Position numbers and translations under genes: made by a program. A DNA stretch of 64,000 bases from a virus, in the IMG/VR virus record IMGVR_UViG_3300023174_006147, positions 20,475 to 84,474 of that record; one strand, given 5' to 3'. Under the pieces are notes generated by a model. It had not been told where the DNA came from. It made no database searches and worked only from the letters and a program-made list of their open reading frames with translations. The number at the start of each line of letters is the position of its first letter. Within the stretch, counting starts at the first letter, position 1. This document shows, piece by piece, positions 60,485 to 60,981 of this stretch.

Positions 60485-60853
60485 TTAATTGAACTGTTCG
60501 TCTAAAACGCTGAATGCTTTTTGTGGTCGGAATTTATACAGACTGTACTTGAAAAAATAAGGATGTCTGTCCTACAACGGTTCGGTAGTCAAGCTAGTAT
60601 AGCCTCGATCATTGTCAGGTTCAAAGAACTTATGATGTTTGATGTTTAACTGGACTAACTCTTCCGAAATCTTGTTCAGTGAGTTTTCTGATTTGACACC
60701 TATTAGAATAAGGTGACTTGTGGACTTAGGCTTACCTAAATCTCGTCCTGCTTCAAGCGCAGAGTGCGCAGCCTGGACAATTTGTTGTTCAATTGGGAGA
60801 TCTTCGCGAACGAAGGTGTATACTATATTCTTATCTTCTGCAATCTATGACAT
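60485..60853 (-). CDS. PTH2-like protein with two in-frame TAG codons (readthrough or pseudogene)
   Basis: MS*IAEDKNIVYTFVREDL...QAAHSA...FFEPD...TSLTTEPL*DRHPYFFKYSL. Confidence 0.7.
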
Positions 60854-60867
60854 TTTCATTTCCTTTA

Positions 60868-60981
60868 AAAGTGGGGCTTATCACCCCGGGATGCCCGTAG
60901 CCTGATACGTCTATCAGATTCACTAGTAAATTCTAGCTATACCGAGTGTGGTCCTTTCGGATCCCATGGCCGGACTATCTT
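60868..60981 (-). ncRNA. Structured leader RNA upstream of the amber-PTH2 gene
   Basis: Hairpins TCC-GAAA-GGA, CTGATA/TATCAG, GGGG/CCCC; closing GTCCG/CGGGC. Confidence 0.5.

What the first reader, a model, noticed from the sequence alone, without database searches (positions are those of the whole stretch)
60485..60981. Hidden PTH2-like gene with two in-frame amber codons and a structured leader
Missed by the ORF track. Seen: SD AAAGGA, ATG-TCA-TAG (TAG at 60845-60847), 90 open codons with PTH2-like motifs (VYTFVREDL, QAAHSA, LILIGV, FFEPD, TSLTTEP), a second in-frame TAG (60572-60574), then a PTH2-like tail (RHPYFFKYSL) to a TAA overlapping the next gene's SD. There are no frameshifts, both stops are TAG, and both fall outside the core motifs. 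TAG is a normal stop elsewhere in the window and no CUA tRNA is seen. Inference: expression needs amber readthrough, so a peptidyl-tRNA hydrolase would be made only when RF1 termination fails, analogous to RF2 autoregulation. An intact PTH2 also exists at 19475-19873.
Basis: partly seen in the sequence, partly recalled or inferred. Interest (0 to 1): 0.82.

Follow-up and report, generated by a model that had tools for sequence, protein, structure and literature searches.

The report
Amber-gated phage tRNA-hydrolase-like gene
A giant phage keeps a UAG stop as the third codon of a small peptidyl-tRNA-hydrolase-like gene, as dozens of distant giant phages do beside their own UAG-reading tRNAs, so the enzyme is probably made only when that tRNA overrides the stop.

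Summary
Minus strand 60853-60485 reads SD, ATG-TCA-TAG, 90 codons, TAG, 28 codons, TAA. The product has a Pth2 fold.

The first TAG is conserved. It appears in all 15 members of the window's own clade, in about 70% of 68 IMG/VR relatives, and in isolated jumbo phages (GAP32, BF, RsoM2USA, ME3, Arash). It is always TAG, 1-3 codons after ATG, and always followed by a purine.

Nine of nine near-complete genomes with such a gene carry a CUA-anticodon tRNA, often the nearest tRNA. The window shows none because its contig ends too soon. A colinear strain (97.6% nt identity) has two tRNA(CUA) genes 2.0-2.7 kb beyond that end.

The second TAG is not conserved. It is one C-to-A change (TCG Ser in that strain).

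Best reading: expression is gated by a phage amber-suppressor tRNA, not by RF1 failure. The 'structured leader' is unsupported as a fold, although about 95 nt are conserved.

I found no published description; the XacN1 authors reported finding no suppressor targets. This scan has already noted the same module on other DNA. Function and the inserted amino acid are untested.

The parts
60861..60866 (-). Shine-Dalgarno AAAGGA, 7 nt before the ATG at 60853
   Evidence: Read directly. An equivalent SD precedes the ATG in all relatives inspected.
60845..60853 (-). Start and gate: ATG-TCA-TAG (codons 1-3), followed by ATT
   Evidence: ATG + 1-3 sense codons + TAG is conserved in 40 or more of 68 IMG/VR loci, in all 15 members of the window's clade and in 7 GenBank phages. 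The base after the TAG is a purine in 39 of 39 non-redundant genes.
60575..60844 (-). Core of the PTH2-fold protein (90 codons) with invariant Y9, R13, D15, Q20, V23, Q24, H27, E75
   Evidence: Alignment A2. AlphaFold2 pLDDT 87.9. The top 12 Foldseek hits are all Pth2 structures. dN/dS is 0.128 against L023.
60572..60574 (-). Second in-frame TAG (codon 94), strain-specific
   Evidence: It is TCG (Ser) in L104, a strain whose copy of this gene differs at 3 of 369 nt, and GCG (Ala) in L023. The next base is G, a purine.
60485..60571 (-). C-terminal tail (28 codons) plus TAA; holds a nearly invariant Arg and a conserved hydrophobic motif
   Evidence: Alignment A2. dN/dS is 0.129. phrog_34073 matches across the second TAG.
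60854..60948 (-). Conserved leader of about 95 nt, including a small GGGG/CCCC hairpin (60887-60873) before the SD; function unknown
   Evidence: About 88% identical to L023, versus 74-78% over the alignment blocks covering the gene and its neighbours. One compensatory pair occurs in the hairpin. Fold z=-1.15, no Rfam match and no terminator call.
19475..19873 (-). Separate, intact canonical PTH2 gene next to the tRNA array
   Evidence: PF01981 E=4e-13. It keeps the GK and DAG motifs.
19892..43577 (-). tRNA array: 41 by ARAGORN plus Glu(CUC) and Val(UAC) by Infernal; none with CUA; two with UCA

Best explanation
The locus encodes a 122-codon divergent Pth2-fold protein whose codons 3 and 94 are UAG. 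Ribosomes start at ATG 60853 (SD AAAGGA). At codon 3, RF1 would release a dipeptide unless a UAG-decoding tRNA inserts an amino acid, so the protein is made only while a phage-encoded amber-suppressor tRNA(CUA) is present and charged. In this phage the suppressor genes very probably lie 2-3 kb beyond the end of the assembled contig. The gate at codon 3 is an ancient, selected feature of the family. The UAG at codon 94 is a recent single-base change (TCG to TAG) at a variable position, and the same suppressor would be expected to read it. The product probably acts on the esterified 3' end of a tRNA (peptidyl-, N-acyl-aminoacyl- or aminoacyl-tRNA). In many phages it works with, or is fused to, an HD-domain protein that resembles the helical part of tRNA nucleotidyltransferases and is itself UAG-gated. 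Shown by comparative data: the conserved gate, its TAG specificity and context, the linkage to tRNA(CUA), purifying selection, and the fold. Inferred: that the tRNA is charged and reads the gate, the enzyme's substrate, and the physiological logic. That logic could be a checkpoint that delays these enzymes until the phage tRNA set works, or a feedback loop on the suppressor itself.
For: (1) The gate is conserved. ATG + 1-3 codons + TAG sits directly before the conserved body in GAP32, BF, RsoM2USA, ME3, Arash, XbC2 and LR756511. It is also in 48 of 68 IMG/VR loci and in all 15 members of the window's clade at 57-99% identity.
(2) The gate is specific to TAG. In about 1.5 Mb, ORFs of 90 or more codons preceded by SD+ATG+1-3 codons+stop number TAG 55, TAA 7 and TGA 5, although TAG is the rarest boundary stop. 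These counts include near-identical loci; the non-redundant early-TAG set is 39 genes.
(3) The base after the gate is a purine in 39 of 39 genes, against 59% after ordinary terminal TAGs.
(4) No alternative start exists. 15 of 39 next codons (AAC, AAT, GGC, GAC, GAT, ACC) cannot initiate. Several bodies have no ATG/GTG/TTG at all, and the window's has none before codon 84.
(5) A cognate tRNA is present. A CUA-anticodon tRNA occurs in 9 of 9 near-complete genomes that have the gated gene. It is the nearest tRNA to the gene in 29 of 50 non-redundant loci.
(6) L104 is colinear with the window at 97.6% nt and has two tRNA(CUA) genes 2.0-2.7 kb past the contig end.
(7) Extra internal TAGs recur in other lineages, and conserved motifs continue after them.
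(8) dN/dS is 0.128 for the body and 0.129 for the tail after the second TAG.
(9) The fold is Pth2: pLDDT 87.9 and TM 0.55-0.69 to Pth2 structures.
(10) A neighbouring HD-family gene carries the same early or internal TAG.
Against: No CUA tRNA lies on the window's own contig, so its presence in this phage is inferred from a colinear strain (97.6% nt). Nothing is experimental: expression, charging and amino-acid identity of the tRNA are unknown. TAG still ends about 11% of ORFs here, so a strong suppressor would extend some phage and host proteins. One relative's CUA tRNA has C33 instead of U33 and one has a 30-nt insert, so not all copies need be functional. The Lys that I recall as catalytic in Pth2 is an invariant Gln here, so hydrolase activity is uncertain. 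Many family members have ordinary starts, so the gate is common but not obligatory. Counts include related sequences and are not fully independent.
Confidence: 0.85

Rival explanations
1. RF1-failure sensor. There is no dedicated suppressor. The gene is read through by near-cognate host tRNAs only when RF1 termination is impaired, which gives an RF2-like autoregulatory loop.
For: No CUA tRNA lies on the contig. An early stop is a plausible sensor position.
Against: All adequately covered relatives carry tRNA(CUA), usually adjacent. A colinear strain (97.6% nt) has two just past the contig end. Two UAGs in one gene would make near-cognate readthrough product extremely rare.
Confidence: 0.06
2. 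Mini-ORF plus re-initiation. ATG-TCA-TAG is a lambda bar-like minigene or uORF. The Pth2-like protein would be translated separately, from the ATT after the TAG or from an internal start, without readthrough.
For: In the window's clade the codon after TAG is ATT or ATA, which are weak non-canonical starts. SD-ATG-X-stop resembles bar minigenes (my own knowledge).
Against: Across the family 15 of 39 next codons cannot initiate. Some bodies contain no canonical start. The stop is always TAG and never TAA or TGA. Internal TAGs recur with conserved sequence after them. The gene is specifically linked to tRNA(CUA).
Confidence: 0.05
3. Decaying pseudogene, or sequencing or assembly error.
For: The second TAG is a single-base difference from a strain that is 99% identical over this gene. 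It could be an inactivating mutation or an error.
Against: The first TAG is conserved in dozens of lineages. dN/dS is 0.13 on both sides of the second TAG. There are no frameshifts. Only 3 differences in 369 nt separate the window from L104, and two are synonymous.
Confidence: 0.03
4. Genome-wide or block-wise TAG reassignment (code 15-like), as in crAss-like and Lak phages.
For: Suppressor tRNAs in phages are usually explained this way (PMC13037316, PMC10607447).
Against: Only this one gene in 84 kb has in-frame TAGs. TAG ends 11 of 100 ORFs, with short distances to the next stop. No convincing TAG-bridged genes were found. Isolated relatives are annotated under the standard code.
Confidence: 0.02

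Closest known systems
Stop-codon-recoded phages with their own suppressor tRNAs (TAG or TGA reassigned in crAss-like, Lak and other huge phages; PMC13037316, PMC10607447, PMC7886860)
   Same: A phage-encoded tRNA(CUA) decodes in-frame UAG in phage genes. The arrangement may act as a timing device.
   Different: Here the genome otherwise uses the standard code. The UAG sits in one or two specific small genes, stereotypically at codon 2-5. Those genes encode tRNA-end enzymes and lie next to the tRNA gene.
prfB (RF2) autoregulation through an in-frame UGA (established knowledge)
   Same: An early in-frame stop codon makes synthesis of a translation factor depend on how that stop is decoded.
   Different: RF2 uses a +1 frameshift and senses its own product. 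Here the mechanism is readthrough by a dedicated tRNA, and no feedback of the product on decoding has been shown.
Canonical Pth2 (PF01981; archaeal/eukaryotic peptidyl-tRNA hydrolase 2, e.g. 1xty, 1q7s, 3erj)
   Same: Same fold (TM 0.55-0.69). Shared R-x-D-L ... Q-x-x-H-A motif and a second acidic motif.
   Different: It scores below the Pfam gathering threshold. The GK lysine is an invariant Gln, the DAG aspartate is Glu, and the loop is two residues shorter. The window also has a canonical PTH2 elsewhere.
Phage lambda bar minigenes (established knowledge)
   Same: SD + ATG + one codon + stop. There is also a link to peptidyl-tRNA hydrolase biology.
   Different: The stop is TAG only, is in frame with a conserved ORF, and co-occurs with a suppressor tRNA.
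Synthetic amber-suppressor gates (e.g. PMC7969014, PMC11669171)
   Same: Same logic: a target gene with an early UAG is expressed only when a suppressor tRNA is supplied.
   Different: Those gates are engineered. This one appears to be a natural, widespread counterpart.

Membership tests
Pth2 peptidyl-tRNA hydrolase (PF01981) | Pth2 alpha/beta fold | tested here: met
   AlphaFold2 model pLDDT 87.9, pTM 0.80. The top 12 Foldseek PDB hits are all Pth2 proteins, prob 1.0, TM 0.55-0.69.
Pth2 peptidyl-tRNA hydrolase (PF01981) | Score above the Pfam gathering threshold (23 bits) | tested here: not met
   18.2 bits for the read-through protein and 19.2 bits for the 90-aa core.
Pth2 peptidyl-tRNA hydrolase (PF01981) | Lys of the GK motif (reported catalytic Lys18 in S. 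solfataricus Pth2; recalled from memory, not checked in a paper here) | tested here: not met
   The profile alignment to PDB Pth2 chains places the family's invariant Gln20 on that Lys.
Pth2 peptidyl-tRNA hydrolase (PF01981) | Asp of the DAG motif | tested here: inconclusive
   It aligns to the invariant Glu75 of the E-P-D motif, a conservative change.
Pth2 peptidyl-tRNA hydrolase (PF01981) | Hydrolysis of peptidyl-tRNA | not testable with these tools
   This needs an enzyme assay.
Suppressor-tRNA-dependent (amber-gated) phage gene | In-frame stop conserved in homologues at the same place | tested here: met
   Met for the first TAG. Not met for the second TAG.
Suppressor-tRNA-dependent (amber-gated) phage gene | Cognate suppressor tRNA encoded by the same genome | tested here: inconclusive
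   Absent from the 84-kb contig, which is 22% complete. Present twice in a colinear strain (97.6% nt) just beyond the contig end, and in 9 of 9 near-complete relatives.
Suppressor-tRNA-dependent (amber-gated) phage gene | Purifying selection downstream of the stops and no alternative start | tested here: met
   dN/dS is 0.128 and 0.129. No canonical start occurs before codon 84 of the body.
Suppressor-tRNA-dependent (amber-gated) phage gene | Protein product that spans the UAG | not testable with these tools
   This needs proteomics or a reporter.
Genome-wide stop-codon reassignment (code 15) | Many genes need TAG as a sense codon; TAG is not used as a terminator | tested here: not met
   Only one gene in 84 kb has in-frame TAGs, and TAG ends 11 of 100 ORFs.
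RF2-type autoregulatory recoding | The product controls decoding of its own recoding site | not testable with these tools
   No data exist on whether the Pth2-like protein acts on the suppressor tRNA or on termination.
Lambda bar-type minigene | Stand-alone two- or three-codon ORF ending in any stop | tested here: not met
   The stop is always TAG and is in frame with a conserved body.

The most novel reading that the evidence does not exclude
The tRNA(CUA), the UAG-gated Pth2-like enzyme and, in many phages, the UAG-gated HD enzyme form a self-referential circuit. The UAG codons would sense the activity of the suppressor tRNA. The two tRNA-3'-end enzymes would act back on that tRNA (deacylation, peptidyl release or end processing). 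This would give a natural tRNA-operated homeostat or bistable switch that sets how strongly UAG is overridden during infection. It would also provide the first conserved targets for the long-unexplained suppressor tRNAs of standard-code jumbo phages.
Probability: 0.25. Interest if true: 0.9.

Novelty: new variant of a known kind. Interest (0 to 1): 0.78.

Why it matters
Jumbo phages that use the standard genetic code often carry amber-suppressor tRNAs with no known purpose. [quoted passage not shown] A conserved gene with UAG at codon 2-5, physically linked to those tRNAs, provides testable targets. It also points to a natural translational AND-gate that works like engineered amber switches. 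Gene callers systematically miss or truncate these genes: they are unannotated in BF, RsoM2USA, the pEa_SNUABM phages and fHe-Yen9, and truncated in GAP32, ME3 and Arash. Several hosts are laboratory strains, so reporter, proteomic and knockout tests are straightforward. This window adds a natural double-amber allele that is one base away from a Ser codon in a sister strain.

Tried and rejected
- The leader as a known RNA or significant structure: no Rfam match, fold z=-1.15, no terminator or promoter call at the site. Only sequence conservation with L023 remains.
- A hidden CUA tRNA in the window: relaxed ARAGORN, Infernal RF00005 and an anticodon-loop pattern scan found none. The leader's cloverleaf-like fold has no CUA loop.
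- An HD-family partner in the window or L023: no tblastn hit.
- Amino-acid identity of the suppressor from its closest paralogous tRNAs: inconsistent (Arg, Asp, Gln, Ile) and the script failed partway; dropped.
- Other TAG-bridged genes in the contig: nothing convincing.
- Early-TGA genes to match the two tRNA(UCA): none found.
- Close DNA relatives in GenBank phages: none.
The reported Acidobacteria cassettes were therefore not tested.
- P0025 in viral contigs: no relative found.
- I could not retrieve a paper confirming the Pth2 catalytic residues. That point rests on memory.

Full report
WHAT IS THERE. On the minus strand the window reads AAAGGA (60866-60861), seven bases, then ATG-TCA-TAG (60853-60845). 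Ninety open codons follow (60844-60575), then a second TAG (60574-60572), 28 more codons and TAA (60487-60485). That TAA overlaps the SD of the next gene. There are no frameshifts. The window belongs to an 84,474-nt viral contig estimated 22% complete. It carries at least 43 tRNA genes, none with a CUA anticodon and two with UCA. A canonical PTH2 gene lies at 19475-19873 on the minus strand.

WHAT THE PROTEIN IS. Pfam PTH2 matches only weakly (18-19 bits against a cutoff of 23). A PHROG of unknown function matches across the second TAG. With an alignment of 33 relatives, AlphaFold2 gives a confident model (pLDDT 87.9, pTM 0.80). Its 12 best PDB matches are all Pth2 proteins: 3erj, 1q7s, 1wn2, 2zv3, 1rlk, 1xty and 2gax, with TM 0.55-0.69. 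A profile-to-PDB alignment puts the family's invariant Gln20 on the Lys of the Pth2 GK motif and its invariant Glu75 on the Asp of the DAG motif. I recall from memory, unchecked, that these two are the catalytic residues. The protein therefore has a Pth2 fold with an altered active site. It is distinct from the canonical PTH2 that the same phage also encodes.

THE FIRST TAG IS A CONSERVED FEATURE.
- tblastn against GenBank phages found 27 records, nearly all jumbo phages, in which the match is unannotated or truncated.
- Seven lineages each show SD, ATG, one or two sense codons, TAG, then the conserved body. They are Acinetobacter ME3, Ralstonia RsoM2USA, Cronobacter GAP32, Serratia BF, Salmonella Arash, Xanthomonas XbC2 and the 595-kb LR756511.
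- Of 68 IMG/VR loci, 40 have M-x(1-3)-TAG, 8 more have TAG without a nearby ATG, and 2 HD-Pth2 fusions also begin M-xxx-TAG.
- All 15 metagenomic members of the window's own clade (57-99% identity) keep M-x-TAG-AT(T/A).
- A control scan of about 1.5 Mb counted ORFs of 90 or more codons preceded by SD+ATG+1-3 codons+stop. The result was TAG 55, TAA 7 and TGA 5, although TAG is the rarest boundary stop. The TAG count includes near-identical loci.
- In 39 non-redundant genes the base after the gate is always a purine (A 22, G 17). It is a purine after 59% of ordinary terminal TAGs. From my own knowledge, a purine is the context that favours amber suppression.
- Fifteen of the 39 following codons cannot initiate. 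Several bodies contain no ATG/GTG/TTG at all, and the window's has none before codon 84. Re-initiation and pseudogene decay therefore do not explain the pattern.

LINK TO AMBER-SUPPRESSOR tRNAs.
- ARAGORN finds a CUA-anticodon tRNA in the tRNA regions of all five isolated phages checked, 0.5-13 kb from the gene.
- It also finds one within 10 kb in 38 of the 48 early-TAG IMG/VR loci.
- Four further near-complete genomes that seemed to lack one do have it. In one it lies 40 kb away. In one it sits next to a UUA tRNA. One copy carries a 30-nt insert. One has C33 in the anticodon loop.
- In 50 non-redundant loci with tRNAs, the tRNA nearest the gene is CUA in 29. CUA is also the commonest anticodon there (52 of 330).
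- Subfamilies with ordinary starts often still have a tRNA(CUA) 250-530 nt upstream.

THE WINDOW'S MISSING tRNA. Metagenome contig L104 is colinear with the window at 97.6% nucleotide identity, and window position 64000 corresponds to L104:6247. L104 carries two tRNA(CUA) genes at 3546-3620 and 4173-4249. That places them 2.0-2.7 kb beyond the end of the window's contig. The more distant relative L023 has one 7.5 kb upstream of its gene.

THE SECOND TAG IS RECENT. The window and L104 genes differ at three of 369 bases. Two changes are synonymous. The third is codon 94, TAG in the window and TCG (Ser) in L104. Other clade members have A, E, Y or T at this variable position. Between the window and L023, dN/dS is 0.128 for the 90-codon body and 0.129 for the 28-codon tail. 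The tail holds a nearly invariant Arg, so it is a selected part of the protein. Additional internal TAGs have arisen repeatedly elsewhere, notably in the loop before the second strand in L036, L041/46/53/65, L061, L121 and L135. Conserved motifs continue after them. In a gene that already depends on a suppressor, a further UAG is apparently tolerated. An inactivating mutation or a base-calling error at this one site cannot be excluded.

A WIDER MODULE. The same early TAG precedes a 180-200-aa protein just downstream of the Pth2-like gene in several phages. In GAP32-like phages that gene has an internal TAG at codon 47. It shows weak HD/HDIG matches. Its confident model (pLDDT 93) best matches the 'tRNA processing enzyme' entries 3wfo-3wfs, with TMq about 0.6 and E about 1e-2. 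I recall these entries as class II tRNA nucleotidyltransferases. In RAS14, Xoo-sp13, L062 and L083 this domain is fused to the N-terminus of the Pth2-like domain. The window and L023 lack this partner.

MECHANISM. Best supported (0.85): translation starts at ATG 60853, and the UAG at codon 3 aborts synthesis unless the phage's tRNA(CUA) decodes it. The enzyme is therefore made only when that tRNA is expressed and charged. An early position keeps the 'off' state cheap and leaves no truncated protein. The physiological purpose is an inference. One option is a checkpoint that delays tRNA-end enzymes until the phage tRNA set works. The other is a feedback loop in which the enzymes act on the suppressor itself. 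The specific linkage to tRNA(CUA), rather than to the tRNA array in general, and the presence of a separate canonical PTH2 both favour a role tied to the suppressor. I put that reading at about 0.25.

THE LEADER. The fold is not better than shuffled sequence (z=-1.15), there is no Rfam hit, and there is no terminator call. About 95 nt upstream of the ATG are roughly 88% identical to L023. The alignment blocks covering the gene and its neighbours are 74-78% identical. One compensatory pair occurs in a small hairpin. The leader may be a promoter or an operator; this is unresolved.

WHAT IS KNOWN. Full-text searches found genome-wide TAG recoding with suppressor tRNAs in crAss-like, Lak and other huge phages (PMC13037316, PMC10607447, PMC7886860). 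They also found engineered amber gates (PMC7969014). They found no description of this gene-specific gate. The XacN1 paper states that no targets of its CUA tRNAs could be found. The RsoM2USA paper only notes the tRNA.

EARLIER NOTES FROM THIS SCAN. Earlier AI notes describe the same Pth2-like/HD/tRNA(CUA) module on other DNA, including a claim for Acidobacteria that I could not test. I reached my reading before seeing those notes, and they are not independent evidence.

LIMITS. Nothing here is experimental.

Noticed in passing
window 34046-34117 and 36458-36528 (minus strand): Two tRNAs with anticodon UCA (opal-suppressor-like; ARAGORN labels them 'SeC'). The first scores 62 bits with Infernal and the second only 24 bits. 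Relaxed ARAGORN also proposes a UUA 'tRNA-Stop' near window 36029-36114. No early-TGA gene was found in the contig.
   Followed up: partly
window 9228-9328 and 37320-37423 (minus strand): Two over-long tRNA-like sequences (101 and 104 nt). Each has a good acceptor stem, a T arm and CCA, but extra sequence in the D and anticodon-arm region. Both score below the Rfam tRNA cutoff.
   Followed up: no
window 17728-19380 (minus strand): A 74-codon ORF and a 476-codon ORF lie in the same frame, separated by a single TGA, next to the tRNA array that holds the UCA tRNAs. They may simply be two adjacent genes.
   Followed up: no
L074:9858-10010: In this 354-kb phage contig the Pth2-like gene is preceded by SD-ATG-ATG-TCA-GGT-TAT-GGG-TGA-ATG. 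A tRNA(UCA) lies about 130 nt upstream, where other phages have tRNA(CUA). This may be an opal version of the gate.
   Followed up: partly
L065:9980 onward: The Pth2-like gene has an in-frame insertion of about 300 codons between the EPD motif and the C-terminal T-A-I-A-T-E-P motif, in addition to two TAGs. It may be an inserted element or an intron.
   Followed up: no
L100:11265-11425 (G003, 527-kb phage): A tRNA(CUA) and a tRNA(UUA) lie side by side. The phage may therefore carry both amber and ochre suppressors.
   Followed up: no
L147:~640-650: One relative has M-L-TAA directly before the conserved body. This may be an ochre-gated variant. No tRNA lies on the 5-kb contig.
   Followed up: no
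L003 (GAP32) 1821-1961 and equivalents L030-L040:10321-10458: In GAP32-like phages the HD-family gene downstream of the Pth2-like gene starts normally but has an in-frame TAG at codon 47. GenBank annotates only the 46-aa stub (GAP32_398).
   Followed up: partly
L141 (contig of 1.46 Mb) and L137 (387 kb): Family members with ordinary starts and no nearby tRNA occur on very long, probably cellular, contigs. The fold family is therefore not restricted to phages.
   Followed up: no
L005 (Salmonella phage Arash) 2810-2881: GenBank annotates this tRNA as tRNA-Phe, but ARAGORN reads its anticodon as CUA. It lies about 1 kb from the gated gene.
   Followed up: partly
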